64,000 bases of DNA from Botryllus schlosseri. Its lineage: Eukaryota. The notes under the pieces are model-generated. The model did not search any database. It had not been told where the DNA came from and saw nothing but the letters and a program-made list of their open reading frames with translations. Position 1 is the stretch's first letter, and every line of letters begins with the position of its first letter. Position numbers and translations under genes: made by a program. The stretch spans positions 31,188,001-31,252,000 of the forward strand of contig CM119371.1 of the NCBI GenBank assembly GCA_051294905.1. Direction: 5' to 3'. Of the stretch, positions 32,801 to 63,439 are shown piece after piece.

Positions 32801-35800
32801 TGAAGTATAAAAGCAAGTGTAGTAATGCCTTATATTTTCCGTAAATAAAGCTATACACTATATGGCATTTTACAATCTGCCATAGTTTTAGTTCACGTAT
32901 AGTAATCGCGCAAAGTGTTAAAGCCGTATCCGACACAACTTCTCCGTATTGCTCTTCGACTGAAATAGTTGCCTTATAATATGGGGAAGGGCGCCATGCC
33001 ATGATATTGGCTAAAACGGGGTCTTCGAGTAAACAAAGGATTAGTAGGCTATCGCATTTTCATATCAATACTATCATTTACATCCCATGATGTGAACGAA
33101 TGCTTATTACGGCAAAAATTGACACCTCCTGATATGCCTCAATATGAATTAAGCTCTCTACACCTTCCGCATAACTCCATTTGCAGCTTTTGACTGTCCA
33201 TGCGAACGAATAACGATCGTTTTCACAACTATTTACTTACTTGAGTAGATTTAAAGTCAGTCAATTCTACTTCTACTTGAAGTAGTTTTAGGTTGCTTAT
33301 GTAAGAAGTACTTCTACTCGTACTTGAGTAGATATTTTCGTCGCTACTTCTACTTCTACTTGAGTAGCGTTCGTGACTACTTTGACCACTTCTGCATTTA
33401 AGTGACTGGTTCTTGACCTTTCTCCTTATTACTACCGCTGAGAAGAACCTGACAATGGCCTCAATAAATTATCCGTGGTACAGATCTTGAAAATCATTCG
33501 TACTGAATGTTTCATCGCAATATATTTCTTCACATTCTCCGAGGCTTTTCGATTAACCGTCGTCTGGAGAAATCTCCATTACGAAGTTAAAATACAAACC
33601 ATAGAATTGAACGAAGTAAAGTCAGATTTAACGTTGAATGTTGTTATATTAAGATTTCAGATGACGAAATAGTTACCACGCTTGCAATTGAAATAGGGAA
33701 TCCAGTTAAGTCGAGTGATTTGATTGATTAACATAACATCAACTGTCGATCGACATTATGAAACTATAAAATAATTCTTTTCACCAGCAGGAAGTTGTTT
33801 AAGGCTTACGGTGAAAATTGTGTCTGATTGTCCAATACAGTGTTTCTTAACCATTTGAATTTTCAATGTCATTTCTCTTATCCTCGTTTATTTTGACACA
33901 CCTTCTGATACGGCCATTTCATTAACACCCTTTATTACCATTTTTCGCAATCAAATATGCTATTTATGAAGAAATCCGGGGTTGTCCAAGACCTATCTGA
34001 TGATTTCCTTTGGCCTATCAGGCATTGTCTCATTTTTCAAAAGTTAGTGAATAAATTTTGTCAGTAATATAACGCAAGACTGGAATCAAGTTATAGAGAA
34101 TGTCTCGAGTCATATGATTTAACCGAGTCAAGCGCAATGACTCGAGTAAAGGTCGAGTCGATACACAAAATGCCTCAAGTCGAGACGAGTTATTTTTCAT
34201 TTTTCAGAAAATCGAGGCAACGAAAAACTGTGACACGAACCTCTGTCATATCAATTCGCATGTCAAACTGCGACACAGACTCCTGGTGAAGAACCCTCGG
34301 TGTCATGTATTTAAATGGGATGCTGAGTGACAAGTGAAAAATGGAAAACGTTCAACACCATATAGTTAGCAGGATATTGTTATAGTTGTTGTCTTATCGC
34401 GGAGGAGCGTGTTAATGGCTAATCAGATTCGTTTAGTCTTCGCTATCATAGCGTTCTTGCTTTGGTTTGCACAAGCTGCAGAGATTGTCTGACATGATGG
34501 AAACGAATAGGATTAAGCATTGCTATACTTCTGAGCCATAAAAAAGCTCCCAATAACAGATCCTAATTTTGCTGCTAACCATAGCATTGGCCGTTACTCC
34601 ATTATATCAATTTGTCACTAGACATTCGAATTGAATGCATTTGAGATAATTTTCATCAAGACCCTAATACTGAATTCATGTCGATATGAAGAATTCATTT
34701 ACTAGGGCTGGTGTGAACCTCTGGAAGGTTCAGGTTTGTGTGAACGCGAACCTTTTTGATAGGTTCTGTGAGAACGTGAATTTCATGACGTCACGTGACG
34801 TCATATTGCTAATTCTACATTTCAGCGATGTGATAGCCTATATTGATGAACACGATAGCTATAGCGAAGACTCGGGCCACATAATGCCACAATGCTGAAG
34901 TACATATTGAAGTTTTAAACGTCGCCGAATGTATCAACTGGAGCAATTAAATGATATAATATTACCATAAAATCAATACCTTCCGTCGCTTTGCCAACAA
35001 TTTCGACTGGGACTCGCAAAGAATATAAGCTCACGCCCTTACGGTCTAGGCCAGACCGAACAATATATTCGGCGTCTGAGTATTGTTACGCTGATATTTA
35101 GCAGATATAGATCCATTCTTTATATCGATATCATTGATTGGTTGAATAATCATCAGTTGCTGACTACCTACATGTAGTGTATTTCGCTCTTGTTGTTGTG
35201 TGATTGCGGGTCAAGCTCACTGCAAAGAGTCCCTCAGTGTTCGAGCAAACATTTGTAACAAAGCAAGTAATTTTTTTAGATAGCCAAGCTGCATGCTCGT
35301 TTAGTGTTGATTATGTTCTGCCGCCAACACCAACCATATAGTGGCCAGCAGTCGAAATATAATAAATTTCATCTAAAGATGTTATAATGAAGTCAAAATT
35401 GAAATATATGAAAAAGGTTCACAGTGCAGAACCTACCAAGGTTCAAGGAACATCTAAATTTCTGAGGTTCGTACACAGAGCTCGAATGTGAACTTCACGT
35501 TCACACCATCCCTGTTATTAACAACCAGCAATGATTCTAGAAAATCACGGAAAATCTGAATTAACACGCTGGTCGACACTACGTTGATCAGTATGTTGAA
35601 AATGAGCTTATGTCCAATTCACACCTCCATAACTGATCTGCATAGCCGGAATGAGATGAGTAGCATAATTTGAAGACGTCATGCAAGCATTGTTACCCAA
35701 TGCAGAAGAACGGCAAAAACAAGTCCAATAAAAAAGTAGTGATTGTTTAATAATTATAAGTTGTTGCAAAGAAACTACTAGCTTTGCATAGGAAATCCTA

Positions 35801-38800
35801 ATTATGCAGAGATCATTGATTTCGAGAAATTTCATAAAACGTTGGTACGACATTATTGCAAGGTGGACAACCTGTTGTCACATACGCTTGTAACGTTAAT
35901 CTGTACTGTAGTTCCATTCCCCTCACATCGAATTGACAGTAAATTTGATTTTCCCGTAACGCCCGTAGCTGTGATTGAGATTTAATCAATAGCATTGAAG
36001 TAATTCGAGATCAAAAATAAACGTCCCTTACCAAACATGACATTTTCGCAAAGTTTCGGCCGAGTTGTTTCCTGGCAGAGGCACTCGTCGGTGAGGTCTG
36101 GGCAGTCAAATACGCCATCACATAACTTGGAAATCGGTAAAACGACAAATGGTTCTGTCAGGCATTGGAAACATTTGCTGTCCGATCGGTCTGGTTAGTT
36201 ATGGGATAACATAAACCAATACTCATAAAATTCAAGTAACCTTTTGCTTACATTTTCCGTCCCCAGGACAAATGCACTCGTCTATATCTGCAAGATATAG
36301 ATTATCATTAGAAGGGGAAACTTAAAATGTATAACGAAACATATCTCTTGTGACCTGCATGACATGCGATCTAAAGAATTGAATTCGACTATACTTATTC
36401 CGCAGACAGTGTGGTCGTCTTGTCGTTGCTATACTCTACATGACCGTCAGATTAGGATATCTAGCATTCTTCCGAAACCATGTACTGAATAATGAGACTT
36501 TGGTGATTTTACATACATATTACAATTCGGGTGTTGCACAAAACTACAGCAAACATTGTCGAGTAAAACAAAACCAAGAATGGAAAACTAGTTGAGCACA
36601 CGCATCTGTGCACGAGATGAAATGGTATTTCCAATCCTTTTTCCGATGTTGAAATCCAAATGCATGTTCACATCCAGATAATTTTTCGCATCCCATCAAG
36701 ATCACCAAGATCAGCATTGAGGAAGGACTGATTCATTATTTTCAAATGTCCTAATTAAAATGGTATAGCAGGGATGGTGTAGCGTGGTATTTATCAGAAT
36801 CTGATATATTATTATAAATGAATTGTTATCGAAAATTGTTGTGATCTTGCGACTTAAGTCAAAATCTAATGGGCTAGGTCGACAAATTTTGAATGTGGAT
36901 GTCTAAATTACAGTTCTGACGCAGTGGCGTATCCAGACGAGGAGGAGGGGCCATACATCCACATTTTTAGTGATTATTTGTACGTTACCATCAATTAGAG
37001 TACTCCGCCGCAGACTTATTCAATTCTAAGGTTTTCTTCTAGTGCCACTGGATTTCTTGCTTTAAATTGGTAGTACCGCTCAGTTAAATTAAAACTGCAC
37101 GTAATTTAAAAAATATTCTTTGATTCGCAATTATGTGAGAACGGAATATCCTCAGTATCGCTTCAGGCTGCTGGGATGCTTCTGTTTAATAGTGTGCGCT
37201 TCCAGAAGGATTCTAGGCGATGAAACCTGTTCATAAATGATCGACTCAAATTGACAGAAAATATAGATATTGATATGGTCAGGCGCCGTTTATCATCCCC
37301 TTAACAATCTGAGTACTGCGGTACAAATGCGACCCATATTATGTGCAATATAGGCAATTACTAATATTATCGACCGAATTAATTCATTACCTTAAATAAA
37401 TTTCGCGGGTCTAAAAACTAATGCACGCCAGCCTTCCATGACGCCATGGAATCATAACCCAACAGTTCAGAAATCGATATTAAAGAGCTGTCATTCCCGA
37501 TATAATTTCAATCAACTCCGTGGTGATAACAGCTTGTCTAGATCGGTTGTATAAGAGGGTCTTATCAATGATTTCACCAGCATTCTTTGTGGCGCAATCC
37601 ATGCAGACCATCAATTTTCATCAATTTTGTGCATATGAAGATAGATCCACCGTTCATCGCTATATACCTAATATGGCTCGCACGACGGTTCGTTAACCGC
37701 ATGTGGCCCTTTTGCCCGATAGGTTATCAGGCCCTGTTGTAAAGTATCAGAAATTCCAAAAACAAGCCCAAAGTCAAATCCAGCATAGAAAATCCTAAAT
37801 ACAAATTTTCTGCTAAATCTAAATCAATCAAGCTCTGTAAATCCATTTGATTTTCTTGTCTAAATCTGAATCCAAGCTCATATCCGATAAATACATGGCC
37901 GATATTGTAACTAGGACGTCCGAATCTACCATGGATCCACAATATGGCGATGACACCACCGGCATTCGTTTTTTAAATGCCCGTCTTAACAACGAGATAG
38001 GTGTTGCGTTAAAAAGTGGCAGATATAATGTGATCCTACACTGGACTTACTGTGGTCACACAGTGGAACCCCATCGCATAGATTCGAGTCAGATATCATG
38101 CATTGCCTCCCGTTTCGATGGCATATTCTTCCCGTAAAATTAGCCATTTCTGACTGGCTAATTTCGTCGCTCCCATCTCTGAAATTAAAAAGCTTTGAAT
38201 AAGGTATCTAACAAGATGTTTACAGGGATTCTTAATTATTATGAAATTGTGTGTGTCCAATATCACGGTGAAAACAGAACTTGCATTTTCGGCAGCTCGG
38301 TTTTTGTAGCACTACTCATATCCCTAGCACGTTACCCAAATTTATCCTCATGTGGTTTCTGAGAGAAACCCAGACTGTGACTGCGAACGAATTATAATAT
38401 AAAGAATAAACCATTCTCTACATCATATAACACTTCGATACGCTAATCGTAGTGGGGATATTACCAGTGACATCTTCAGCGTGATAATTAATACAGTTAT
38501 ACGCTGGTCATCATAATGAAAGAAAATATTTTGGGGCATAACATGTAACAATGTTTTGAATGTTGAAGAAGACGAATTTGATAAAATTGTTGCCTGATTG
38601 ACTCTAGTTTAGAAGATAGATATACCGCGAAATAACCCAAAATAATGTATTTCCTCCATAAATGCATAAACTACTAGGAGTAATTCGTTGCTTTTTCCAC
38701 TTTATACTTCACATAAATAGAAAACTGACTATGAATAAAACTCATGTTGTCCATGGTTATTCGATGAATATGAACTTGATGACCTGGTGTGAACTATTTT

Positions 38801-41800
38801 GTTTTTATATAAAATGAGTATTGGACCTAGTCCAAAATTGTAATTTTGCACAACGGAAATATACTTGCTCCTGTACCAATTGGGCACTCTATCAAGATGA
38901 AAGATGAGTATGGAGCCCTTAATTTTGTCTTTACCTAGAATACTCATGTGGCTCGTGTTGACACGAAAATGAGAAATTTTCTGCTGTGCTTAAAAGTGGC
39001 TATTAGGGTTGTCCAAAATTTGGAAAATCTTACAAATCCTCCGTTGTAATGTCTTATTCTATAGATTATTGATAAAAAACGACATTAGGCCTAAAAGAAG
39101 CTCACAAGGAGGCCGTTAAGATTTCGTGCAAAGCGTTTGAAAGTAGCTGCTGAAGAATGGGCGTGCCACCGACCATAGAACGGCGAGAAGACTAGTAATC
39201 ACGAAACCACGGCTCTTGATTGGCTAATCTGCTATGCTTCAATGACCTTGACAGCAGCAGCTTGCTGATAAGGTGATCAAGGAGTCTGCTACCGGCGGCG
39301 ATTCTGAAAGCGCATTGTATGTAGGTTGACAGATTATGATTCAGGATTGATTCAGGGTATGTTGAGGTACGAAATACATGATGAACAAACCACAGCTGCT
39401 TCACAAAAACGTCTAAAGCATGACCGCTTTACTGTGAAGGAAACCGCCGTAGCCTAAATGCCTTGTTTTCAACGAGGGAAAGCGGTGCTTAGGTGCTTAT
39501 GCAAGTGGCGATGGATTCCTAGTTTCAGAACGGATATATCATTATTGAATACAAATATAAAGCTTAACAACGACACTATAATTTGTATGATCTTATTGGG
39601 CTCAAGTTGTAGTACATAGTTGAAGTTGTGAATGCTCTAGGGATCGGCTGAATCAGACGGTTAGGCCTGGCACTTATCAGATGTTTACAGCAAATTGAAT
39701 TCACTTGTAAGTGTTTTCAAAGTCCCAAATGATGCCGCAGAAACGAGGTGTAAATGTAAGCACACACATACTGTGCTTGATATGATATACAAACTATGCT
39801 GGATACTATGCTCTATGCAGTATTTTCTGTGCTTACCTTTGCATTCCTTTTCTGCGCGTTTATTAAGGACTTTGCCATATCATTGACATATCATATCCAG
39901 CATAGTATGTGCTTACTATTACACCGCTTTCCTGCGTCATCATTAAGGACTTTGACAACACTTGCAAGTGAATACAATTTGATGTAAGCATCTGATAAGT
40001 GCCAAGCATAACCCGCCGATTCTTAGAGCATTCAAAACTTCAACTATGTACTACCACCTGAGCTCGATAAGATCACACAACTAATAGTGTCGTTGTTAAG
40101 CTTTATACTTGTATTCAATAATGATATATCCTTTCTAAAACTAGGAATCCATCGCCACTTGCATAAGCGCCTATGCTTTCCCTCGTTGAAAACAAGGCAT
40201 ATAGGCTGCGGCGGTTTCCTTCACAATAAAGCGGTCATGCTTTGGTTTTTGTGAAGCAGCTGTTGTTTGTTCGTCATGTATTTCGTACCTCAACATACCC
40301 TGAATCAATCCTAAACCATTATCTGCCAACCTACATGCAATGCGCTTTCACAATCGCCGCCGGTAGCAGACTTCTTGATCACCTAATCAACAAGCTGCTG
40401 CTCTCGTGGCCATTGAAGCATAGCCGATTAGCAAATCAAGAGCCGTGATTTCGTGATTACTAGTCTTCACGCCGTTCTATGGTCGGTGGCACGCCCATTC
40501 TTAGGCAGCTACTTTCAAACGCTTTGCACGAAATCTTAACGGTCTTCCTGTGAGTTTCTTTTAGGCCCATTGTCGTTTTTTATCAATAATCTATAGAATA
40601 AGACATTACAACGGAGGATTTGTAAGATTTTCCAAATTTTGGACAACCCTAGTGGCTATACTAAGTTCCGATATTTTCTATATGTTTATGCGGCAGAAGA
40701 GCAACAATCCAACACTGACGCAAGAAAGACTGGTTAGAATGACCCAGTGTTCAAGTTGGAATACCCAATGTACTCAATGAGCCCAATGGTGCATACCCAG
40801 GTATAGATAGAATTGTCATTCCTACTCATAAAGCAGTTCGTCAAAGCATTAAGCGAAGAGTGGAATTGCTTCAAGAACATCTGCAGACAACTTCGAGAAC
40901 TCTCAAAGTGGAAACTTGAAGCTAGTATCTTCGAGAGACCTCGAATTAGAATGCGGGTGAAAGATTTAAATTTCACGCAGACAGAAATGGGCTCACGGCA
41001 TGAAATAGCTTCAAGGATGTAGTAAAAAACTTCTTGCAGAATCAAAAGATCTCAACTACAAACAGTTGATTCAAAAATTGTTTTCTGCATATGGCAGAAA
41101 GCAAGTGGCAAGTGAAATGGTTCAACCAAGACATCAAAATAATTAAATCAATGCAGATTAGATGAACATATGATGGTAGAGCATTGTTGGAACATGTTGA
41201 GTGACTGCATTCCCAAAATTGCTCACAAGCGAAATGGTGTTACAACACTTTGTATCTCAAGATTAATAATAACTATCCTTATTGTGTTTCATGTGACTAT
41301 TTTGAATTCGACTTATATCAAACATGGATAATGGATTTATTGGAACAAAATCTCAGTAGTTCATGTGGACACTTATCAGAAAAAGTCATCAACTGGGATA
41401 TATCTAATGCTCCATAAAATTTATGAAGTTGCTGTATTATGACATAAAAATCTCTTCATTATGACAAAAAACGATTAGGTTGAATTTCCGAAATTTGTAG
41501 TACGAGTGAGCTGTTTTTTGTTAACTAGCCAATAATGCGTAAATATGAGATTTTAGTCAAAATAGCCCAAAACCATAAACTAGGGCAAATTTGAAAATCT
41601 AAAGTCATACTTGATATCGGTGTCCTTCAGAGACCCATAAGCACTCTTACTTCGTCTTTCATTGGATACAGAAATACCAAAGCACACATCGACTAAAATA
41701 GATCACCGATTGTTGTACGTACTTGCAGTCAGTAATTCCATTGCAATACTGATTTTGAGGAACGCACATCCTTCCGTTGGCACAGGAAAATTCACCCGGT

Positions 41801-44800
41801 TTGCAGGAAGAGCCTGGAAACGGCGAAACGACACATTTTGAAAATGTTGGGCATAAAATGAATTGACAGTTGTCACAATTAGTCAGTGCATTTTTGTGAA
41901 TTGACAAACCAGTGTCGATTTTCCTAATCAGAAATGAAAAAGAGGCACCAAATTCATACCATCACACATTTCATCGTGATGCGGAACCAGTTCGGCTGGT
42001 AATTCGCATAGCGAATATTGGAAGCTGTCCGTCTTTTTGCGGCATAATGTGGCATTTATATCAATATATTCAGATTTCCTCCACGGCTCATCCGATCCAT
42101 CCCTGTGACGAGACAAATTACAATAAAATATCATGTATTTGGTATATGTGGCATTTGGTAATGGACAAGAACCAAATTGTTTGATTTTCCTAACCTAAAA
42201 CATAACGTGATCGTTTCGCGTTCATGTCAAATGCCCGTGTTTATATGTCGATAAATTGGCTTCGCTAGTTACAACAAAATGAACAGTTTCATTTCCGATC
42301 TGATGGAAGTGTCCGCAAAAATATCGTCAAATGTCAGTAAATATCAATACTAGTATACAACGTATGTTGGTACCTCAAACTTTAGCAAAGTAAATCAGCA
42401 ACAGATAACATGCGATACTACACACCTGCACTCGGACCTTCCATCACAAAAATTTCTCTTTTCTATGCATGTTGACCCGGAGTCGCACGAAAATTCGTTC
42501 CAGTGGCACGCCGAGCCTGAACAGAGCATATTTATTTAGTGAATAGACGAAATCAAAATTTATAGTCATGCATTATAACTCCATTACGCAGTAACATGAA
42601 CAGAAATTAGATCTCTTGACATAAAAGCTTTTATGTGCTATTACCAGACTTTTCATACAATTTCCATTCTGCTACCGTCTTCTTCAGTGGTTCTCAACCT
42701 CTTTGTCTTCGCGGACCCGTTTTTGACCGTCACGGACCTCCGCGGACCCCCCGATGTTTTAGTTCAAGTTTACCTCAATTATCGCACAATCGTATTCTGT
42801 CTTGTGCAAATGATAACTGTAGGCTAGTGATAGACAGGAACAAAATGACTTTCCTTGAAAATAACATCATACTATTTATGTAGAAATTGGGTCGATTTCG
42901 AAGCAAATTCTGCAACTGAATTTCTTGAAATATGTGGTCGTGTCTTGAAAATCCGCGCCTTCGATTTCATATGAACGAGTGCTGAAAATCCATTTAGACA
43001 AAGAAAGGTGGTGGCGAATGTAATAATGAAATATATCGCTTCCTAGGAGACACTTGGGTATGGTCACAACAATGATGGCACCAAAATTGACAATTTTTTA
43101 TTGAACGTTATTATGAAAAAATGGCTCTGGAGGCCTATATCACAGGAGAAAATGGATTTTTGTGAACATTTCGATGTCACCGTGATTGACTTTGCTAATC
43201 CAACTATTTAATTTTTACATAATCCCCAACAAAAGATCTGTATACAGCAAAATATTTGAATCAGTAGGCTATTGACAATATAGCAACTAATGTGAGTCTG
43301 CACAGCAGGATATTTCATCTCAGACGGCGATTCTATTAATATGAGTTCTACTAGTAATGAAGCGAAACTGCCTCGTGATTTTCCTAATTTAAAATAATAC
43401 AAATTAGGTTATCAACTATTTTGTACATTTAAAGCAGTGGTTCCCAACCTTTTTTAAACACGCCCTCCTTTGTGGTAGTGAAAAATTTTGCGCCCCCCTT
43501 ATCTTCAAATCACAGAATCGAACCGGGATGCCAGCAACCCCAACAGATTGTTTAATGGCATGGAAGGTTATGACTGTTGATGAGAGAATTCAAAAATATG
43601 AAATTCGGTCTACACAGAGAGAAACACGCGTGAATTTGAGGTAAATCGTGCAAAGGTCGCAAGAAAATCAGTTGTCCGATTCGTCGCGCGCCCCTTGAGA
43701 TTCTTTCACGCTCCCCAGGTTGGGAACCACAGATTTAGAGGCTTCGCGGACCCCCGTTAGAGAACCACTGGTATATTTCATAATCGCATATTCCACTATT
43801 GTCGTACCTTCGCAAAATGTGTATCCATCCACAGGCGTTCTTTCAGGCAGCTTACAAATGCGTGAACTATCCGGATGCGCCTTACGACAGAAGCTAACAT
43901 TCGAGTTATACACCATACTGCTGTCAAAATATTGCTCGTCTGAACCGTCTCTGAACAAGAATTGCACATTCTGGCCAACTTATGTATGATAAATAGTATC
44001 ACAGATTGGAACTCGGTGGTTAGTATGATGGCCTGGAGGGTAGGATCATTCGGTTCACGTTCGTGTTAGGCGAGCAAACCTTGAAAATACAGTAGTTTCG
44101 CTTGGTTCAACGCCCCTGATAGGCATAAAAGGAAATACAACACACTTTAAGATGGACCTTGACGCTAAACAAGCTTGAAATATCGCGCTATTCCGATCAT
44201 AACTAAATATTTATTATAATAAATCACCTCACTCTGGTCAATATTAAACGTCTCCATGGTTGATGGAATTCAATGGACAATAAGGTCAGACACATGCAAA
44301 ACAAGGTCAGTCGCTACTTGCGCAATAAAGTAAGTGCGCGTATAAACTGTAAATGTGTGCTTCAGATCCAATTTTTAACTCCAATTTCGGGTTAGGGTCA
44401 ATGGGATGGGCTGGTAAATGATTGTTATTAGGGTCGGGGTGAGGTTTCTTAGGGTTAGGGTACTTATAGCGTTAGAGGGCTAGCATCCTTTTTGTAATGT
44501 CATTATTGTGCAAGTTCTGTCCTTCTTGCGTACCTAGCGAATGACTGTATTGTGCATTAAATCGCACCCCCCCCCCCCCCCCCCATTAAGCTTGGGCCGG
44601 AAGCGAGCTTGAGCGAGAACACAAACGTAACTTTCAGTGCAGCGGCAGAGATGGGTATGACCTATTATCTCATGGGCCTGATGGATTCACGGGCGCTACG
44701 AGTGGATGAAAAGCGCCTTCAACAACCCTATTCGCTTTACAGGAAGCTGAAAATAAAATAAAAAATGTGAAAAATTGGACATCGTATGTTTTCTTTACGG

Positions 44801-47800
44801 AACAAGGGATCTGTGATGCCGCATATTCTTATAAAAAAAAACTCCTCATTATCATTCGATCGAGCCCAATGAATGTGTGGTAGGGTTGTTCAACAATACC
44901 AATTTTTCGAATTTTCGCGGCTATTTCATGAAAGTGTTAGGTTGGCTGAAAAACGTTACCCACCAAAGTTGGCTCACTTCGAACAGCAGAAGTGAAGCTT
45001 TGGGAGTTTAAAAAACAAAAAGTCTAATCACATCATGTGATGTAATAACTAATTATTGTACGATTGTTTTTATTGTGTGTTGTATTTCTATCATCTAACT
45101 AAAGGTTACTGCATGAATCTTTTTTTTTTCAAATAACATACCTTTTTTTAAAACTTTTTCAAATGCTTCTGAAAGTCAAAAGGGGTATTGGTTTTTCAAA
45201 ATTTTCAACGGCGAGCTCTGTTTGACAAAACTAAAATTCGCTACAGTTAATCTAGTTGAGGAGATTTAGGGTACACAGCGGTAAGATCATAAGGGTTTAT
45301 GCACTATAGGTAGTAACCTTAAACATTTTTTCTCGCTTCGTACATAAGCATTAAAATGGTTGCGGCCGAATATTTTCACAGTGCCTCAAAAATGAAACTG
45401 CTGGCGTACCGCAGATTCAGAACCTTTGATATAAGAACGGGAGCATTTCCAAGAAGTCCCAAAGCGAACGAAAACATTTAAGGGACTCGCACCATCCCCA
45501 ATGGCTACATTTGCAAATATGAAAGGCAACCCAAAATATCTAAATCTATATAGACGCACCGACATTGCGGGTCCGAATCGCAGAAGTACCGATTCCAAAG
45601 ACACGTCGATCCATCTAGACACGGGAATTCATCATGTCTGCAAGTGGTTCCTGTGAACATGAATATGTAGAAATGTTATATTGACGTAATGGATGGTACA
45701 CCATCAGGAGTTCTTCATCAGCCACGGCGCTGACTGTTTCTGGTTCTGCTGACTTATACTGTACTAGTAATTAAGCTACGTAGAAAAAGTTGGATGTTTG
45801 ATGGTCGTTTTGCCCCTTACTGGATCGCAATGACTGCAGAGCAATATCTTTTTTGCTATGTAGAGGAAAATCATATTATCGCCACTTTAGTCGTTGGATT
45901 TAAAATTCGAATTATATATTTCAGCCAAAAGAAGACATCATGGTACGTGAACTTGTGAGATTTGATGTTGCTATCTGAGGTGACCAGCAACACAGTACTC
46001 GTCCAAGAATTCAAATATTACTCTGTGAACTTGTATCTATAAGTGTTCTATTTGTTACGGTTTGGACCAGTGGTTCCCAAACTTTTTCGGTGTGAGGGCC
46101 AAATTTAGAATTTCAGAGTACGGTCGGGGCCGCACGAATACTACGGCTATGAAACGGACCCAAACAGTCATCATGGCTATTTCGGAGTAGTTTTATTGCC
46201 CTGGCGAGATTTCAGATCTGTACACTGTTTACCGCTACTTATCTGCTGCATTGGGTGTATGTTGAGGGAATCAGCTTTTCTCGTCTAAACGCGCGAAGCG
46301 CGAGAAATTTCTTTAGTTTCATGACTGAATCGGTCAATATGATCGGGAATTGCATGTATTGCTATCAATTTTCATCTTGTCTCTGTTCACGTAATCTGAT
46401 TTACCGGTAGAGCTGAGTGAGGTGTGTTTGTAAAGGTATAGGCCCCCTCAATAGGAATTAAACATATCCGGGGTATACCCGTTGGCAGGAACGTAACGGC
46501 ACTTCGTCAGGACCCCGGGCTCCCATAGGGTGATAAACTGACCATGACCACGCATGACGTTGTTCGCTTTTGCCACGAAATTAAAGTTGTACTGTTTATT
46601 GAGACAGCGCGACGCCCGAATATTTCGATAATTCATGATAAAATCGGTGAATAAGATCGGGAATTGCGTGGTTGTCCTCTTTGCCCACGTAATCCGCTTT
46701 ACCGGTAGAGCTGAGTGAGAGGTGTCTTTGAGACTGCAGACCCCGTAAAATTAAACATATTCGGGCGGGCAGACCCCTAGGTATGACTTCTTCACATGTT
46801 GTTATTTTGTGACATCCTGTCTGCTATATCAAAAAATTTAGAATTGCCCAAACTTACTAAACTAGAAGATCACACAATTTCAGATCAATTGGTATTTCTT
46901 CGCTGGCATATAATTTTCTTTCCTGCGATATGGTATTTGTCTTGTGAGGTTCAGATTGCCAAGACAAGAATATTCGGCGCCAGTCATTTAGGCGCCTATA
47001 TGGACAAATAAACCTATATGTATTTTGTATATATAACGAAGTTTTTGGTATTTCGAAGTTTTAGGTCAGCATAAAAGCAGTCCTTTACGGCCATGGCTTT
47101 CTCGCTGCCGATCGTTCACACTTCTTGGAGTCACATGTTACATGGCCTAAAACTTTATATGTCTTGGTGCGTTGTGGTGCGGTCATGACCAACGCTGATA
47201 TGCCCATTTCTATGAATCTTGCGTATTTTTACTTGGGGAAGAGTACCCAATAAGATATGCGGCGAATTGAAATCGCGCCCAGCGCGAAAATTTTTTGAAG
47301 AAGTTGCATAAATTTTCAGAAAATACTCCATAATTTATGCCAATTCACGAAATGATTTTGGGCCCATTCGAGCTCGGCCCCCTCAATTGGAGGGGTTTGG
47401 GGTGCGGCAGTAACGGCCCTGAAGATAGGACTACCAATTATGCTTCTTTTACCCGACTAAGCAGTATGCATCTCGGCGTATTCAACCGTGAGTCACGTGT
47501 TGCACATCTAGTTATCATAGGGTTACCATACGTCCTCTTTTAAAATGATTTGTCCTCTTTTTGATTTTTTTTTAAAGTGTCTTCTTTTTTGATATTTTGT
47601 CTTCTTTTTTGAGGATTTTGGTTACATATAGGGCCATATTCGACTGATATGCATTAAGTCAGCACTGTAAGAACGCTACGGCGGCTATTTCGGAGCTGGA
47701 CCGGGAAATTTTTTTTCAGTCAACCACCTGTTAATGTGAAAGAAAAACCGTATTTTCCGGGAGTTGAGCCTCTTTTTCTTTTTTAGTCAAGCGACCACGA

Positions 47801-50800
47801 GGAAGAGATTTTCCCCCGGTTTTGAAAGTTATCAATACCTATTTATATCTATAGCTACTGCTCGTTCAACTGGAAAGTTAGGGCACATTGCATTGAAACA
47901 GCAGTGACATAACGTTAGCAGTCTATACTCACAACTTTCCTGCAATTCTATAATTAAAAACCACAAGCCAAGCAAGAGTATTTTATAAATATAAATTTTA
48001 TTTTTGTCATAAATCGATTTATTAATATATTTTGGGGGCCGCAAGAAGGCTATCTGGGGGCCGCGCTTGGGAATCACTGGTTTAGACTAAGGTCGTGGTG
48101 TTAGCATAGTCGCATATGTTAGGCAAGGGTTGATATCTGGTTGAAAAAGTACTTCGAGCCGTTTTTACTCCTTTCAATATTTTCATTCAATCACTATCTT
48201 GTGGTGTTTTGAATCTACCAAAATCAACAAAATGCATCTCAATTTAGTCATCTGACAATTTATTTTACAATTTTACACAATATCCAGTCAAAAGAATTTC
48301 TTGTGTGAATTGAAATGTCTTTCTGACTGCTATCGACATTTAAACCGTTCGATATAGACACTGTATCCCTGTACAGAAAATAATTTAAAAATCGCAAGTA
48401 TTTGTGACTGCGGTAGTAATTTATCACTATTGCGAATGTATCGGTGTCTTGAAATTTTCAACGCTGACGACGCATTTCACGTATCCCATTTTATGCGACT
48501 ATTTACTTGAGTAATTTTCATTTCTGCTGAAATGTCTGAAGAATTTCTACAAAGACACGTAATTAGTTACCCATTCATAGTTCTACTTTTGCTTGAGCAT
48601 CAATCAGTATTGCTTTAATTACTTCGCGTTGCTCCGTAGGTATAATGCACACCTTAACCCTTACCGGCGCATAACTTCTCCACATATGGTACGTGGTCGG
48701 GCGGGAGCACACATACAGAGTATGAGCTAATGTGGGTAGTGCGGTGACTTCGACAGAAGATGACGTCATCGCCGTAAGTCACTGAACTGTTCCTCAGTGG
48801 CGGCTCGTCCGATCCGTCCCTATACGAAATTTCACCAACGAATAAAACTTATCTACGGCGTAAATCGATGCACCTCATAGCCTGCTAACATGATGCAATT
48901 GTAGGACTACCAGTAGGGTCTTTATAACGTTGTCGATCCTATAAAACTATATTCACGATGAAAGACTGGAATATGATATTATTGATATGGTCACTATACT
49001 ATGATCGTCGAGTATAGTGTCAGCGTTTATACTGCATCCGCGTATTACTCGAAATCCACGACATGATTAAATGGGACGGTTACTATCGATTATTTTGAGA
49101 TAAATTAGCAACTCTTTAGTTAACATTAAAGATATAGGGACAAAATACGGTAACGAAACGATATCGCGGAACCATTTGAAATCATATGCGGCCGTTGCAA
49201 ATCCATGATCCTTCATACCGCAAAAAAGGCCTTTCATGAGACTTGCTATAACGTGTTTCTTGTCACGATATGCAGACGGATAGAGGGTGACACCACCGGT
49301 ATGGTAATTAATTGGTGATCAATATTAATATTATTCGCTTTCTCGTCAAAATACGCGTAGTAGAACTTCTAAGTTGGTATCTAATTCCCAGTAGTCAATG
49401 CAAAGAGCCCTGGCAATAGATTTCAATGCAACATCGATTGTAGTAAAATATTTATTCAACTCGAAGAGTTTTCGGGTACCTCTTTTCAAGAGTTAACGGC
49501 ACAGTAAAGGACTTCATGGTATGTCATTGTCATGGTTACGTCATACTTCGCCTTTTTGGTTTTGCTTTTCATTCGGTTTAAATCCCTTTAGTGTGCCGTT
49601 AACTCTCAAAAAGAGGCAATCGGAAAGTCTTCGAGTTGAATATATATAATATATGTATTGAGCTCTGGAGCAGTGGTTCTCAAACTCTTTCGATCTCGCG
49701 GACCGGTAAATCATCAAGATAAATTCTGCGAACCTGTGAACCTTTAGTGATCAACATTCACAGGAATCGCTATTACAATAAGTGTATGCCACTGAAATGA
49801 AAATTTGGAATCTTCATTTAATGATGCCTTTTGATACTACGCGTGTTTGGGCTGGCTCTATTGAAGCTTCTGCAAGGCGAAGTGCTGTAAAATGCGAGTT
49901 TGCTTTTTGATTTTCTCTATTTTACTGCTAATTGTGGCTAATTTGTACTGTCGAAATTTAACTAGATTTCCTAAACATGTCTTTATAGCTTTAGCATATA
50001 ACAGTTCCGAAACGAGTGATAGGATACTTTTAAACAGTTTCGTGCAGCACTTGCAGCATTGTGACGTACGCCAATCCAAAGCACACCATGCACCATATAT
50101 TGTGATATCACCCATAAGGATATAAGTTCCAAATTTTTTAAATCATTTCAAAAATTGATGTTTAATTTCAATAATTAATGGTAAAGAGTCCAACTTCCTG
50201 CATTCTAGTATTGAGATATGAAATTCCAAATAATTTGGCAGCCCAACAGGAACTTTGCCAGAGACTAGCACCGGTCCGTGGACCGCTGATTGAGAACCAG
50301 TGCTCTAGAGATTATGAAATTCAAATCAAATACGCACAGGCAATCGGCATATCTATCGCAATAATCTTCCCCGGCGATGCACTTGGACCCGTCAGAACAA
50401 GTGAATTCACTGGCTGAACATGATGAACCTAGATAGCAAAGAGGATGCTTCTAACTTTGCAACGGGAGTAAAATCAAATTCAAGCATATATCGGCTTTGT
50501 GTAAAACGGTAAGTTACCAAGAACAAATGCATCTCCCGTTGATGTGCCAGAGGAATAGGATTGAACAGAGCCCCACATATGTATAGAAGAAGAACCTTTA
50601 CGATACAACAAATCCCAAGATGATGTCTGGGTTTGGTAAATAATTCCCAGATCCTGCCGAGGTCAAGGTGAAGTATACTCGAAGGAGTATTCATACTGTC
50701 ACTATACAGCAGTGTTGGGATCAAGTCACTACCTTCGAGTCACGAGTCATTACGAGTCATTGCATATTTTGACTCGAGTCAAGTCAAGTCAAAATTCCAG

Positions 50801-53800
50801 TCAAGTTGCCTTTTCCTAGTATGAGGCATGATTACGTCATTACATTTTGCTAGCTTTCTGAAATACAGATTGAGTGGTCATTGATATCGAACCGATGAAC
50901 GAATATAGAGTTAAATATACACCCAAGAAGGCGCTGTATCGCTCACATATACGTAGCCTCAGTTTATAGTTACCAACCAAAATGGGCAATAGAGAAACGA
51001 ATTGATAAGATGCAATACATTACCCTTTAACCATTTATACACATTGATATGATACAATTCGAGTTTGCGCCAATGGTTGAGGTGTATGTAAACCATATTC
51101 GAATTCAAAATCAATAAAACAAGAGGTTTGGTTAAGGTAGATAATTTTCTATTACATTACTGTACTATACTAGTTTACGACAACGTATGCTGTAAGCTTC
51201 GATCGCTTCGTTTGTGGTCAATTTATTTGTGAGAGAACAATGGAGGCTCAGTAAAACGCACGATCATTGAATGATTGGTCGCTCTCACGGGTTACACCAG
51301 CGTTTCGCGAACAATCCGAACATATGCAAGATACAGTGATTTTTATCGACACCGATTAATTTATGACTTGAAATTGACTCGTGAATTTTGCTCGGAGTCA
51401 CGAGTCAATCCACATTTTTGATACGCCGAGTCAAGTCAAGTCAAGTCATTTTAGCAAAGTGACTCGAGTCAAGTCAAGTCATGCGAAAAAGGCGACTCGA
51501 GTCTGACTCGAGTCAAGTCATGACTCGAGTCATCCCAACACTGCTATACAGTACTTACGAAAGTGGTGTCTGGTTACATTACGTTTCAGACCAGTGGTTC
51601 TCAACCTTTTTGACTTCGCGGACCAGTAAAATATCAAAACAAATGTTGGGAACAGTCGAATCTGAAGGAATCAAAATTAACACTCAATTCCATTACGACG
51701 ATTATATGAAACTGAAATGTAATATATCGGAAAGTTCATTTACTGCTTCCATTTTCTAGTAGATATGTATAGGTAGTTTTATTGAAGTTTCTGCAAGGCG
51801 AAACCCGTGAGGTTCTGGTAAATACCATTAATTTGTTTGATTGTTGCATTTTATAAACATTTTGGTAAAACACTTGCATCATTGCAGCGCACGCCCAAAG
51901 TAGGCCAGGGTCAACTCAACATACAGAAAAATAGGTTTCAAACTGACGAATCACTCTAAAATATGAGGTGTTATTTCCCTAATTAATGGACAAGGGTTCA
52001 ACTTCTTGCTTTTGGAATTAGGATATCAAATTTGGATTTACTCAGCGGACAGGAAGGAAACTTGCCATGGGCCTACACCGGTCCGCGGACCGGCTGTTGA
52101 AAACCAATGTTTTAAACAGGTTTGACGTCTACTTAAACTTAAACTTACTTTCACGATATAGATTTTGTCATGAGGAAAGTAATAATTGATGAGACACTTG
52201 GAAGTAAGGAAATTAAATATAAAATTGAATAATACATATTCATACAGGAGGAAACCCGGTGTTAGACGAAAATATAATTGTTTATTTCTATATCAATGTA
52301 TTTCTCAACAGTATACAGGAATATTTTGATTGACTATCTCACCATCGCACAATTGCGCCGATTGTGACAATAGACTCGACGGTAACAAGCACACGTAGCG
52401 TCCACTTCCAGAACGGCTTTTGCCACGGCAGTAGGTATCATGGTGATTGTACGATGCCGTGTAATTTCTCAACGGCGGTTCATCCGACCCATCACTTAAT
52501 ATTAAGACAATATTCAGTCAATTGAAAAAAGCTAACGGTAAACTATTAGATATCAGCCAGATTACATTTTGATAACTATATATCATTTGTGCTTACACTG
52601 GATTCAATCGACCCTAGGGCTTCCGTGAATGAGGATATCAAGATACACACACCCGAGTCATATGATTTTAATGACAAACTGAACTTGTCCATTGGGTGCA
52701 GGGGATTTGGCGCGCTTAGTACAATCGAATTACGACTGTCGTGATGGCAAGTCCCGAGATTTCTTTCTTGATATTTCAATAACTTCATAGCAACTATGCT
52801 GAACGATAAAATAAAGTGGTCGGACGAATATATACCATGGTGAATCACATGTATAACCAGAAGTGATGAGCGAACTAACTGCATGATTTACAATGCCAAG
52901 TTCATCAATTCTCGTGGTATACCGATCAACCAAGAGAGAGCATTGCCTGGTGAATGGTGATCTATAATAAACGGACACCATTATTGCTTAAGTAGCAGAC
53001 AATGTAGCAAAAAAGATGAGAATGACATTTAACAATTTGAAATCGCGCAATCATGAAGTAGTCTCTCCCAAACAAATGCTAAACCACGTCCAGACGCATT
53101 GAAAGGAAAGGACGTAGTTTATTTTTTTCGTTGATGTTTTTGCGGCATATACACCGACTCATTATAGAAATACACACGATCTGTGAATATGCATACCATG
53201 AATGCATGATGTGGATATGCCGCTGGACAAGGAAGATGCAGATATACCCTTGTACGGCTTTCCCAGTCATGCACCACCCCTCCATGCTCTCCCAGTAATG
53301 CATAAGCTCCAAGCAGGAAGTTCACTGCGATGCCAGTGTTAATAATCACGTCTTTGGTCTGACCCGGCCGGGGATCGAACCCACGACCTACCGACCAAGA
53401 AGCCGGACGCTTCACCATTATTCTATCTTGTCATTATAGACCCTTATGGATTTAAGAGTCGTAATTTCTGAAGCTATTGAATAACTAATTTAGTTTTGTG
53501 TAGGGTATTGCTCGGAATCATGTGATGTTTTTACAGTATGATAAATCTTCTGAATTTTGTTTATGGAGTCTAAAGCTAAATTATTATCTTTACTTACTCG
53601 CAATCTGGCTTTCCGTCGCAAAAGTTTTGTTTTGGTACGCATTGAGAACCATCCGAACATGAGAACTCTCCGTCTCTGCATGTTGATCCTGTGAAATAAC
53701 AGTGATAAAAATGAATGTCAATTTGATATCATGTATTTTTATTTCTCATCTCTCATAGTGGTTGCGAGGCGAGGGGAAGACTTTATGATATGCTGACCTT

Positions 53801-54506
53801 GACATAGTTCGTCCTTGTATGCTTCAAGACTCGGCGGCAGCACACAAATCGAGTATACCAGAATACGAGGATATCTTGAATCAGAGTATTGCCCTGTCCC
53901 GCGGCAAAAATTTGTGTTAGCTTCGTAAGTGATGCTGTTGTTCCTCAAGGCAGGCTCATCAGATCCATCCCTGTCCACAAGCACGGATTTTACTAAGGTC
54001 GTAGGACAAATGATGTATATTCAAAAAATGACACTTCAGTCGATTTGATTCAGGGCCGTCTTTATTTTAAAATCGTTTCCAACAAGATCATACACAACAT
54101 AAAGATACACAGGAACAATTTGAGTCAAAAACCAAATCGTTATCCGCATCAAACATAGAAATATCGGCTCACCAAATTCCCATCTTACCAGCTTGCAAAT
54201 ATAATTTTCAAGTCCAATATTTTGGCCCACTACAATGTTGCTATTCCCAATGTGCTCTACTTACGGGCAATCCTTTTTACCATCGCAAAATTTCCGTGCT
54301 GTAATACATGCTGTCTCATCAGAGCACTGGAATTGACCTATATTGCCATTCCCACATGTAAAGCCTGAACAACATCTTATCTTACATGTCGTAATATAAG
54401 AACCCAATTGATTAGCACTACCTTCGCCATTGGAAATCCAATCCACCGCGGCCGCTGTCATGTAAAAATACATCGTCTTGAACTTTATACCGGAAACTTT
54501 CATCAT
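23855..54506 (-). CDS. Gene B: complete LDLa-repeat, LRR-less G-protein-coupled receptor (LGR/RXFP/GRL101-like 7TM), ~1183 aa, 27 exons
   Basis: Exons: 54422-54506, 54265-54364, 53798-53970, 53598-53688, 52343-52494, 50338-50428, 48665-48819, 45560-45650, 43808-43950, 42426-42516, 41960-42102, 41723-41813, 38051-38178, 36252-36287, 36032-36190, 31375-31675, 30370-30477, 30012-30075, 29191-29277, 28053-28182, 27625-27782, 27382-27563, 25987-26112, 25225-25326, 24940-25158, 24648-24805, 23855-24042. Sum 3552 nt; all GT-AG; phases match. About 12 CDG..C..DE LDLa-like motifs, then 7TM with [37 protein letters not shown] and [12 protein letters not shown]. Confidence 0.92.
32156..33394. mobile_element. 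hAT-type element with AGTA/TACTT subterminal arrays
   Basis: TIR cagaggtggtca / tgaccacttctg; perfect TSD catttaag. Confidence 0.9.
34703..35514. mobile_element. TIR element with GAAC/GGTTC subterminal motifs
   Basis: Termini tagggctggtgtgaac / gttcacaccatccctg; TSD tcatttac / ttattaac (6 of 8). Confidence 0.7.
38940..41220 (+). pseudogene. Decayed DNA-transposase, Chapaev3 (CMC)-like, interrupted by the foldback element
   Basis: Fragments [86 protein letters not shown] and EHMMVEHCW occur in the order recalled for this transposase family. Many frameshifts. Family assignment is from memory, not a search. Confidence 0.6.
39004..40651. mobile_element. Foldback element with ~780-bp inverted arms
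   Basis: 39004-~39789 is the reverse complement of ~39888-40651 (the first ~80 nt are essentially identical); 8-bp TSD gtggctat (38996-39003, 40652-40659). Confidence 0.93.
42685..43770. mobile_element. hAT-type element, same family as 4768-5603 (inverted), with nested MITE
   Basis: Termini cagtggttctc / gagaaccactg; 42685-42900 aligns to the reverse complement of 5400-5603. No clear TSD. Confidence 0.8.
43435..43732. mobile_element. hAT-type MITE nested in 42685-43770
   Basis: TIR cagtggttcccaacct / aggttgggaaccacag; TSD atttaaag / atttagag. Confidence 0.85.
44294..44584. repeat. Degenerate inverted-repeat element with internal TTAGGG-like repeats and a poly-C end
   Basis: tgcaaaacaaggtcagtcgcta..cttgcgcaataa pairs with ttattgtgcaag..tagcgaatgactgtattgtgca; several ttaggg between 44388 and 44461. 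Confidence 0.5.
46068..48079. mobile_element. hAT-type composite non-autonomous element
   Basis: TIR cagtggttcccaa / ttgggaatcactg; TSD gtttggac / gtttagac. Internal 46290-47040 matches 15090-16100 inverted. Confidence 0.85.
49453..49642. mobile_element. Palindromic MITE (~190 bp)
   Basis: Arms tattcaactcgaaga..gagttaacggcacagtaaagg / cctttagtgtgccgttaactc..tcttcgagttgaata in AT-rich flanks. Confidence 0.8.
49671..50302. mobile_element. hAT-type MITE, GCGGACC family
   Basis: TIR cagtggttctcaa / ttgagaaccagtg; TSD ctctggag / ctctagag. Relatives at 51592-52109 and 59954-60609. Confidence 0.85.
50710..51543. mobile_element. GACTC-family hAT-type element (inverted relative to 13444-14399)
   Basis: TIR cagtgttgggat / atcccaacactg; perfect TSD ctatacag. 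Confidence 0.92.
51592..52109. mobile_element. hAT-type MITE, GCGGACC family
   Basis: Termini cagtggttctcaac / gttgaaaaccaatg; TSD tttcagac / ttttaaac (6 of 8). Confidence 0.75.
53118..53422 (-). mobile_element. tRNA-derived SINE
   Basis: The minus strand reads aatggtgaagcgtccggct..ggtcgtgggttcgatccccggccgggtcagaccaaagac (A/B-box head), then a body and the A-rich end aacgaaaaaaataaa. Confidence 0.65.
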
Positions 54507-54871
54507 TTCAGAATGTGCAATACAGGATCAATTAAACGTTAGCTATGCAGCTTTAGATCATACTGCTGTCGACTAACAGGTGCTGTTGTATCTGAATAGA
54601 ACTTGAAATATTTAAATAATAAAACGCCACGTCGAAACTACTGAATAATGTCACGAATGCTATACTCGATTCGTAGCAGCTAACATTTGAAATGATCGCA
54701 GTCACAAATAACACCGCACAATAATCTTTCATTCGACTGTGGCTTCATTGTGCCCGCAGGGTTTTGCTGTATCATTCTTCATATCTCACCGAAGGTTGGA
54801 GGTATTGTGGTATGATCATGAGCACCAATGCCGCGATGGCAACACAAATTGTGATGCTATCAGAGCTTGGG

Positions 54872-54960
54872 GAATTTACTGAGAAATGCGTGATTGGGAG
54901 CAACTGCCAAGCTCGTTGCATGCCACCTATATTTAGGCGACACCTGAAACCCTTGGAATA
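54872..54960 (-). promoter_or_regulatory. Candidate promoter block of gene B
   Basis: Paralogous to 19712-19800; shares agcaactgccaagctcgttgcat and tatttaggcgacacctgaaacc exactly while the flanks diverge. Confidence 0.45.
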
Positions 54961-55800
54961 TTCGATTGACATGCCATAGCTGGTGAATATGAAAACTGCA
55001 AATCCCAGTTAATAACTGCTTACCGGTAATAGCAAACCGTTCGCAGATGTAACAGCAGGATATGTGACATAAAAGGTGTTCTTTTCAGAACTGTGTACTG
55101 CCAACAGACATGAGGTAACCGTGGTTAGTAATCGTAATCACTGTTCCCTCTACGATGCGCGGGTTCGCGATTGCGCAATGCTGACACGGTCTCTGCGCAC
55201 TGAATATCTAAGCTGCGCCCCCCAAAAAAGTGATGACCTTTTTTTGTCGTTACGCACTGTCGGTGAGCTGGTGATTGCGCGCAGACTCGTGAAAAAATAG
55301 AGGAATATTGATCATAAATCGATTACGACGATTATAGTATTTTTAGGTAGTCGTGATCGCAATCGATAACATTCGAAAGAAATTCGAAGTTATCGTAATC
55401 GAATATTTCGAATATCTAGTCGATTTCGTTATAAAAGAACGATGACTTAGTACTTCTGCTATGACTATCACAATACCTGAACATCTGTGAACAAGTAATA
55501 GTGCGTTATTATATCAGATTTTTTCTTGCAGAAGCGTCTGGTTTTTAAACTCCACTGTTCATCGCTCGTCGAAGCGTCGATCGGTGGTTCTAACCGATGT
55601 TTTCTGGAGTTTAGGAGGACACAAACTCACCTCATGCAGCCATTGGTAGTAGACCTAGTCGAATTAACACTGTTAGTGGTACGACGTGTGTAGTGGCATA
55701 TGCTGGAAAGTTTAGTATTAGAAACCGAAACCTCTTCCTTCCGAAATGCCAATTCTATCTCTACTATTTAAAAGAACCTTTGCAATTACCCAATTTGTAT

Positions 55801-60609: not shown

Positions 60610-61326
60610 CTAAACGGCATTTATGGTACTCCATATAAGCGTTTATACTTTGCTTTTTCTTGTATTCTGCAACTGATCTCCAGGTCCCAGAAAAACCTAA
60701 TGGCAACTCACGAAATCTATATACCATATTGGTTAACTTTCGGTTTTTCAATATCACATCAACCTCTTGCTGTGAAAGTGCCCCAAAAGGCATTTGGTTT
60801 CTACTAGACTCGATGAAGATAATAATTAGATATTAGTCTTCAAACTTTTCGGGAATATGACATGGTTCTATTGATGAAAACAGTCATATTTGATGGCAAA
60901 GATTTATGTCTTGATTTTCCACCAACTGATGGTATCAGATTCCTCGAACATACTATCGTTCTATGACCCGAGTTTGATACATGCAAATGATGCGAGAGAT
61001 AGGTGGGGTCCTAATAAGCAAACAAGATATTGCATTGGAAAGAAAACAGTTACAAACTTTTTTCCAATTTCGTGAAATCTAAATTAGCTCGGGACAAATA
61101 TATTTATAGACATTTAAGAGATGTTAAATCATCATCGTTATAACGAGGACATCTCGACGAAGGTAACTATAATTTCCATTTATTCCCCAGTGTCATCATT
61201 GCTTTCATTAAGTGGCATTGTCATTATCGAAACACTATCACAGGACCCTATCAAGATGAAAACGCCCGAAAAAGCATCACCGAATAATTGAACAAATGTT
61301 TTGACAACAAGCTCATTACATGAATA

Positions 61327-61332
61327 TTTATT
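61327..61332 (-). terminator. Candidate polyadenylation signal AATAAA of gene C
   Basis: About 100 nt downstream of the stop, within a 3' region alignable to gene B. Confidence 0.45.
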
Positions 61333-61431
61333 ACGTGTGCTCCACGATTGGCATTTGATTAGCATGGGATATATACATCAGGTGATTATCTCAAACTGTT
61401 TGACCATTTTCTCTTGTCCAAACGATACACT

Positions 61432-63396: not shown

Positions 63397-63439
63397 TATT
63401 TACCCATGAATATTTCAATTGATAGGAAGAAAATCGTAG

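What the first reader, a model, noticed from the sequence alone, without database searches (positions are those of the whole stretch)
41960..54364. Non-canonical 8-cysteine 'extended LDLa' repeat unit
Canonical LDLa has its sixth Cys 2-4 residues after DGSDE. Here DGSDE is followed by ~14-16 residues, usually carrying N-x-S/T sites (NTTFC, NDTFC, NVSFC, NATLC). Then comes FCR-[loop]-CxLP-x9-10-C. The unit is ~80 aa with 8 Cys and occurs five times in gene B and six times in gene A. I do not recognise the C-terminal half as a named domain; it may be an undescribed LDLa-fused mini-domain with an extra disulfide.
Basis: partly seen in the sequence, partly recalled or inferred. Interest (0 to 1): 0.7.

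Follow-up and report, generated by a model that had tools for sequence, protein, structure and literature searches.

The report
Sea-squirt receptor's fused LDLa repeat
These are tandem repeats in the outer part of a known kind of sea-squirt membrane receptor, each probably made by fusing one LDL-receptor module to the cut-down remains of a second; the receptor family is known, but we found no description of this fused repeat.

Summary
There are 11 eight-cysteine units on the minus strand, 5 in gene B and 6 in gene A. Each is two exons: LDLa C1-C5, then DGSDE plus a three-cysteine tail. The host is an ascidian LDLRR-GPCR (LDLa repeats, relaxin-receptor-like 7TM, no LRR seen), colinear with a Styela clava protein.

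The tail matches no Pfam family but is not a new invention. Relatives show a series: a 10-Cys twin (LDLa lacking C6 plus LDLa lacking C1), then twins that lost C4', then the 8-Cys unit. Tail versus twin scores 90% by profile comparison, twin versus canonical LDLa 97%. Spacing makes C6, C7 and C8 the second module's C2', C3' and C5'.

It is not mere decay: dN/dS is about 0.3, the pair is amplified as one unit (up to 13 copies in Styela), and an aromatic residue before C4 marks 65 of 68 tail-bearing modules versus 5 of 163 ordinary ones. AlphaFold gives one compact domain (pLDDT 91.5) with a helix replacing the second calcium cage.

Disulfides 1-3, 2-5, 4-7, 6-8 are inferred, not seen. Ligand and splicing are not shown. 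Verdict: a new variant of a known kind.

The parts
54422..54506 (-). gene B first coding exon, probable signal peptide (inferred; no signal-peptide predictor run)
   Evidence: paralogous to the gene A start
54265..54364 (-). gene B unit 1, exon A (LDLa C1-C5)
   Evidence: Pfam PF00057 25.7 bits, cut-off 24.1
53798..53970 (-). gene B unit 1, exon B (DGSDE + three-Cys tail)
53598..53688 (-). gene B unit 2, exon A (paralog of gene A unit 2 exon A)
52343..52494 (-). gene B unit 2, exon B (paralog of gene A unit 3 exon B; unit is a natural chimera)
50338..50428 (-). gene B unit 3, exon A
48665..48819 (-). gene B unit 3, exon B
45560..45650 (-). gene B unit 4, exon A
43808..43950 (-). gene B unit 4, exon B
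42426..42516 (-). gene B unit 5, exon A
41960..42102 (-). gene B unit 5, exon B
41723..41813 (-). gene B 10-Cys twin, exon A (LDLa C1-C5)
   Evidence: PF00057 32.9 bits
38051..38178 (-). gene B 10-Cys twin, exon B: DGSDE, C2', C3', C4' (CDG), C5'; same phases as the tail exons
36236..36287 (-). short exon supplying the twin's C6' (D-E-C); 3' end approximate
28054..36194 (-). further LDLa-type exons of gene B up to the start of TM1; no LRR match seen
   Evidence: tblastn with Styela P0017, P0034, P0035, P0036
23855..28053 (-). 7TM exons of gene B to the stop codon
3573..19276 (-). gene A: six 8-Cys units (exon A/exon B: 19177-19276/18731-18915; 18454-18544/11977-12137; 11772-11862/9759-9910; 9244-9334/8033-8181; 6988-7078/5935-6077; 4046-4136/3573-3715)
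2862..2952 (-). gene A exon paralogous to the twin's exon A; the rest of gene A lies outside the window

Best explanation
The unit is a fused one-and-a-half LDLa domain in the ectodomain of an ascidian LDLRR-GPCR. Step 1 (sequence series shown, order inferred): two neighbouring LDLa modules lost C6 of the first and C1 of the second, giving a 10-Cys twin. Step 2 (inferred): the second module lost C4', C6' and its acidic calcium-binding end, and the stretch between C3' and C5' became a helix. The two-exon, phase 1-1 cassette was then duplicated in tandem. Fold (predicted): module 1 keeps the LDLa fold and mostly its calcium cage; a glycosylated linker loops out; the tail's hairpin and helix dock on module 1. 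Disulfides (inferred, about 0.6): 1-3, 2-5, 4-7 across the old module boundary, 6-8. Function (inferred, about 0.45): a chain of rigid, glycosylated beads that captures a large extracellular ligand for the receptor, with the variable C6-C7 loop (10-23 residues) as the likeliest specificity surface rather than the LDL-receptor lysine pocket.
For: Host: gene B is colinear with Styela clava P0017 (4 units, twin, LDLa, 7TM), and Pfam finds only PF00057 and PF00001 in it. Series: 17 twins, 13 intermediates and 28 non-window 8-Cys units parsed from 31 family proteins. hhalign: 8-Cys tails vs twin second half 89.8% (E 1.8e-6), twin vs canonical LDLa 97.5%, intermediate vs twin 97.2%, window tails vs other 8-Cys tails 93.8%; reversed and EGF controls all under 2%. 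C3' to C5' is +14 in 17 of 17 twins, 13 of 13 intermediates and the window's twin; C7 to C8 is +14 in 11 of 11 window units and 23 of 28 others. The window's twin exon has the same intron phases as the tail exons. F/Y just before C4 occurs in 65 of 68 tail-bearing modules versus 5 of 163 canonical modules of the same family (related sequences, so not independent). dN/dS between genes A and B is 0.37 for exon A (165 codons), 0.30 for exon B (248) and 0.33 for the tail alone. AlphaFold on one Styela unit gives pLDDT 91.5 and pTM 0.77, with tail strands 47-51 and 59-63 and helix 64-76. Residues 1-35 superpose on solved LDLa modules at 0.6-0.8 A. In many VIA rows the C-terminal end of a canonical module falls on the tail hairpin (ends at residues 49-64); in 3a7q_B, chain 47..81 maps to model 2..60 at rmsd 1.1, and 60 is C7 (that residue 81 is canonical C6 is recalled, not from a call).
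Against: The 8-Cys tail has no direct profile match to canonical LDLa (0.5%), and the window's 11 tails alone match the twin at only 9.5%; homology is transitive. No coordinates or disulfides were returned with the model. Its strand limits (47-51, 59-63) also fit C6 and C7 lying directly across the hairpin, which would allow 6-7 with 4-8. VIA end points scatter between the C6 and C7 strands, and the same 3a7q_B chain ended at residue 37. The model's alignment included twin and intermediate rows, and the query was a Styela unit, not the window's. The parse only accepted C5' at +11 to +15, so the spacing count is partly preselected. No natural variant lacking C4 or a tail cysteine was found to test pairing. 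All four calcium-site acidic residues are kept in only 5 of 11 window units. The missing lysine-binding aromatic is family-wide (27 of 163 canonical tunicate modules have it), not special to this unit. The unit tree is short and unrooted. Splicing is inferred from splice signals and uninterrupted homologs, not seen.
Confidence: 0.7

Rival explanations
1. Extended single LDLa: the first tail cysteine is a delayed C6 (4-6 bond), and C7-C8 close a separate new loop or mini-domain unrelated to LDLa.
For: No direct tail-to-LDLa profile match (0.5%). No Pfam or PDB match for the tail. Some VIA rows end near residues 49-53, the C6 strand. The tail's helix is unlike LDLa.
Against: In the 17 twins the same linker, G-x-x-C and C-x-LP lead straight into CDG..C..DEC, an intact LDLa second half (97.5%). 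Intermediates bridge the two, and the +14 spacing and exon phases are shared.
Confidence: 0.12
2. Same LDLa-derived origin, but re-paired: C6-C7 closes the variable loop across the hairpin and C4 pairs with C8.
For: The model's strands 47-51 and 59-63 would place C6 (50) opposite C7 (60) in the simplest register. The C6-C7 loop is the most variable part (10-23 residues).
Against: It needs the canonical C2'-C5' bond to be abandoned although its spacing is kept. In module 1 the homologous hairpin (6-8, 15-17) offsets C2 and C3 by one. One close superposition puts a canonical C-terminus on C7.
Confidence: 0.12
3. Simply alternating intact and decayed LDLa modules: the tail is a drifting spacer with no fold of its own.
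For: The tail descends from LDLa and has lost its calcium ligands. Identity among units is low (mean column identity 46%).
Against: Three tail cysteines and LP are invariant in 11 of 11. Tail dN/dS is 0.33. The same pattern recurs in Styela and two unnamed proteins. The model is confident across the tail, and module 1 carries a matching aromatic signature.
Confidence: 0.06

Closest known systems
LDL-receptor class A module (Pfam PF00057; complement-type repeat)
   Same: C1-C5, DGSDE and most calcium-site acidic residues. PF00057 covers profile positions 2/3 to 34/35 of 37. Model residues 1-35 superpose at under 1 A.
   Different: No C6 after DE. A 14-16 residue glycosylated linker and a three-Cys tail follow. 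F/Y sits before C4 (11 of 11), and the lysine-binding W two before C4 is absent (0 of 11; aromatic 2 of 11). The unit is about 80 aa, not about 40.
LDLRR-GPCR family of Ciona intestinalis (Kamesh et al. 2008, PMC2396169)
   Same: Tandem LDL-A repeats on a relaxin-receptor-like 7TM without LRR. Gene B has this layout.
   Different: The paper says a majority of Ciona repeats conform to the classical structure and describes no 8- or 10-cysteine form in what I read. The Ciona proteins fetched carry twins or intermediates, not tandem 8-Cys units.
Styela clava XP_039271686.2 (P0017) and XP_077966781.1 (P0016), annotated uncharacterized or LRP-like
   Same: The same 8-Cys unit in tandem, 4 and 13 copies. 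P0017 has the same order of units, twin and 7TM.
   Different: The window's 11 units form their own clade (99/94), so they were amplified separately. They have longer C6-C7 loops.
GRL101 / type C LGRs (RXFP1, RXFP2)
   Same: LDLa in front of a related 7TM (as stated in PMC2396169).
   Different: They have LRRs; none was seen in gene B or in P0017.

Membership tests
LDLa module (PF00057) | six cysteines with C6 within a few residues after DE, three disulfides | tested here: not met
   No Cys for 14-16 residues after DE in 11 of 11. Definition from PMC2396169 section 14 and PMC9804390 passages.
LDLa module (PF00057) | profile match over C1 to DE | tested here: met
   Two window exon A translations tested, both above the cut-off. 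7-14 stretches in each homolog that carries the unit.
LDLa module (PF00057) | four acidic calcium ligands | tested here: inconclusive
   All four acidic in 5 of 11 window units; D/N after C4 in 10 of 11; D/E/N/Q before C5 in 11 of 11. Binding not measured.
LDLa module (PF00057) | conserved aromatic residue for lysine binding | tested here: not met
   W in 0 of 11, aromatic in 2 of 11, against 561 of 1351 in non-family canonical modules. The position, two before C4, is recalled.
LDLa module (tail as a second member) | profile match and calcium-binding acidic end | tested here: not met
   Pfam 0 of 11; hhalign 0.5%. Homologous through the twin, but no longer a member.
LDLa module (tail as a second member) | LDLa fold of the tail | tested here: inconclusive
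   Fold searches were filled by module 1. The tail was not modelled alone.
LDLRR-GPCR (host gene) | tandem LDL-A repeats at the N-terminus | tested here: met
LDLRR-GPCR (host gene) | rhodopsin-class 7TM like that of family members | tested here: met
   TM exons match Styela P0017 at 33-63%; P0017 hits PF00001 at 70.2 bits. No tree against RXFP1/2 was built.
LDLRR-GPCR (host gene) | no LRR between LDLa and 7TM | tested here: met
   An LDLa-type exon runs straight into TM1 at 28185-28054, colinear with P0017, which has no LRR hit. A full spliced model was not scanned.
LDLRR-GPCR (host gene) | expressed, signalling receptor | not testable with these tools
   No ligand or signalling data; one search gave no splice joints.

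The most novel reading that the evidence does not exclude
A new composite domain arose by losing the two cysteines between neighbouring LDLa modules, bonding their orphaned partners across the boundary, and refolding the second calcium cage into a helix. All stages survive in living ascidians. The resulting bead, with an exchangeable tail exon and a variable loop, serves as a diversifying recognition unit of blood-cell receptors.
Probability: 0.25. Interest if true: 0.65.

Novelty: new variant of a known kind. Interest (0 to 1): 0.4.

Why it matters
If the pairing holds, this is a clean, staged example of a new extracellular domain born by disulfide rewiring between tandem modules, with the ancestral, intermediate and derived forms all present, two of them in one gene. 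It also corrects annotation: about half of each repeat is invisible to Pfam, so these ectodomains are read as LDLa plus linker. The reach is narrow. It concerns an orphan receptor family of ascidians, and no ligand is known.

Tried and rejected
No whole genome is held, so copy number in the genome was not counted.

The word-based homolog search with the tail alignment found 0 hits among 5511 candidates. The full HMMER search gave 15 hits; I dropped 3 by eye as low-complexity or canonical (P0001, P0003, P0005).

ESM Atlas gave only LDLa clusters under 0.9. The PDB sequence search with the tails gave one chance LRR hit at E 0.087. The first profile comparison held five mis-parsed rows and was redone.

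Expression: no RNA holder was listed. I laid 4 of 24 runs. None of the 15 joints shown, of 151, joins this gene's exons. Bins without repeats had about zero depth in two RNA runs read at 6% and 13%. One guessed-RNA run has contigs crossing introns, so it is probably DNA.

The match 63319-63672 to 38572-38929 first suggested a deletion in gene C; I set it aside as a probable intronic repeat.

Literature: 8 searches (listings only, except two papers) found no description of this unit. Subscription papers, bioRxiv supplements and SMART/CDD/InterPro were not available. Figure 4 and the domain cartoons of PMC2396169 are pictures I could not see.
Full report
Observation. The region is animal DNA with short exons. 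Six-frame scans show 11 units on the minus strand, 5 in gene B (41960-54364) and 6 in gene A (3573-19276). Each is an exon with LDLa C1-C5 and an exon starting at DGSDE with three further cysteines. Splice sites are GT-AG with phases 1-2-1 in all 11. E to C6 is 14-16 residues, the C6-C7 loop is 10-23, and C7 to C8 is +14 in 11 of 11. Every tail has a sequon. A motif written from the tail occurs 11 times in the window and never in 100 shuffles.

Host gene. Downstream, gene B continues through more LDLa-type exons directly into seven transmembrane segments. It is colinear with Styela clava XP_039271686.2 (P0017), with no LRR seen. This is the layout of the Ciona LDLRR-GPCRs in PMC2396169 (I read 12 passages, section 14 and supplementary file 3). 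[quoted passage not shown] Genes A and B are tandem paralogs with exon-by-exon matches, and the 3' end of a third paralog lies at 61-63 kb. The organism is inferred to be an ascidian from its closest named relatives.

The unit elsewhere. A profile of the 11 tails found 15 proteins among 1.84 billion representatives. They include spliced-looking proteins with tandem units: P0006 (6 units) and P0012 (8-9), both unnamed. Follow-up searches added Styela P0016 (13 units) and P0017 (4). Among 143 stored proteins, modules lacking C6 and followed by this tail type were parsed only in 28, all of this family or fragments of it. Only the best 120 of 591 hits were available, so the range is not settled.

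Origin. Relatives from Ciona, Phallusia, Clavelina and Styela carry a 10-Cys twin: C1-C5, DGSDE without C6, a linker, then C2', C-x-LP (C3'), CDG (C4'), C5' and DEC (C6'), without C1'. Gene B has one itself right after its five units (exons at 41813, 38178, 36287), with the same intron phases. A second form has lost C4' but keeps an acidic end (13 examples). Profile comparisons gave: 8-Cys tails vs twin 89.8%, twin vs canonical LDLa 97.5%, intermediate vs twin 97.2%, 8-Cys vs intermediate 63.7%, controls under 2%. Against this, 8-Cys vs canonical is 0.5% and the window's tails alone vs twin 9.5%, so the link runs through the Styela-type tails (93.8%). C3' to C5' is +14 in 17 of 17 twins and 13 of 13 intermediates; C7 to C8 is +14 in 11 of 11 window and 23 of 28 other units. 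So C6, C7, C8 = C2', C3', C5'. A 57-row tree (76 columns, rough support, unrooted) separates 22 twin or intermediate rows (99/84; one long-branch intermediate fell outside) from the 8-Cys rows and groups the window's 11 units (99/94). The direction twin to 8-Cys is inferred from the wider spread of twins and their closer likeness to LDLa.

One domain, not decay. dN/dS between genes A and B is 0.37 for exon A, 0.30 for exon B and 0.33 for the tail alone. F or Y directly before C4 marks 65 of 68 tail-bearing modules but 5 of 163 canonical modules of the same proteins (kin, so not independent), which suggests a docking surface. Gene B unit 2 joins the exon A of gene A's unit 2 to the exon B of its unit 3, so tails appear exchangeable. 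AlphaFold on one Styela unit (50-row alignment including twin rows) gives pLDDT 91.5 and pTM 0.77. It shows an LDLa half, a tail hairpin (47-51, 59-63) and a helix (64-76) where the twin has its calcium cage. Residues 1-35 match solved LDLa modules at 0.6-0.8 A. No solved structure covered the whole unit well, but module 1 filled the lists, so the tail's fold is barely tested.

Disulfides. The canonical pattern is 1-3, 2-5, 4-6 (established knowledge; three bonds and four acidic calcium ligands stated in PMC9804390, passages read). Losing C6 and C1' leaves C4 and C3' free at the module junction, so the simplest pattern is 1-3, 2-5, 4-7, 6-8 (inference, about 0.6). One superposition agrees (3a7q_B ending on residue 60, rmsd 1.1; the identity of its last residue as C6 is recalled). 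Other rows end anywhere from 49 to 64, and the strand limits also allow 6-7 with 4-8. The tool returned no coordinates, so this is open.

How it likely works. Inferred: a chain of five or six rigid, glycosylated, calcium-stabilised beads extends the receptor's N-terminus and captures a large ligand multivalently. The LDL-receptor lysine pocket looks weak (W in 0 of 11, all four acids in 5 of 11), though that holds for the family's ordinary modules too (aromatic in 27 of 163). The C6-C7 loop is the most variable surface. No ligand, expression or splicing evidence was obtained.

Novelty. The receptor family and the LDLa half are known. Eight literature searches showed no description of the twin or the 8-Cys unit; papers outside the library, bioRxiv supplements, figures and InterPro were not seen. 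Verdict: new variant of a known kind, interest 0.4.

Noticed in passing
window 52343-53688 vs 9759-18544: Gene B unit 2 is a natural chimera of gene A's unit 2 exon A and unit 3 exon B. The two exons between them in gene A (11772-12137) have no remnant in gene B's introns.
   Followed up: partly
window 3-1871 (+): Open 622-codon frame with RT-RNase H, integrase zinc-binding and rve domains: an LTR retrotransposon, apparently inside an intron of gene A.
   Followed up: partly
window 54848-55007 and 19689-19850: A 160-bp block, 80% identical, about 350 bp upstream of both start codons; perhaps a 5' UTR exon or promoter.
   Followed up: no
window 61012-63072 (-): 3' end (later TM exons) of a third paralog, 93% identical to gene B over 107 codons, dN/dS 0.10.
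   Followed up: partly
window 54365-54421: The presumed 57-bp first intron is open and in frame in both paralogs, so retention would not break the frame.
   Followed up: no
window 53180-53450, 50700-51550, 45850-47850: High-copy intronic repeats with heavy read depth from other loci; 53180-53450 is abundant in both RNA runs, possibly a SINE.
   Followed up: no
P0015 (Styela clava XP_039271181.1): About 800 residues of unrelated low-complexity sequence are joined to units 99% identical to P0017; probably a gene-model fusion.
   Followed up: no
P0066 and P0119: LDLa-bearing proteins labelled as bacterial. P0066, an LDLa-7TM from a Planctomycetota MAG, is probably host contamination. P0119 has its own run of LDLa modules lacking C6.
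   Followed up: no
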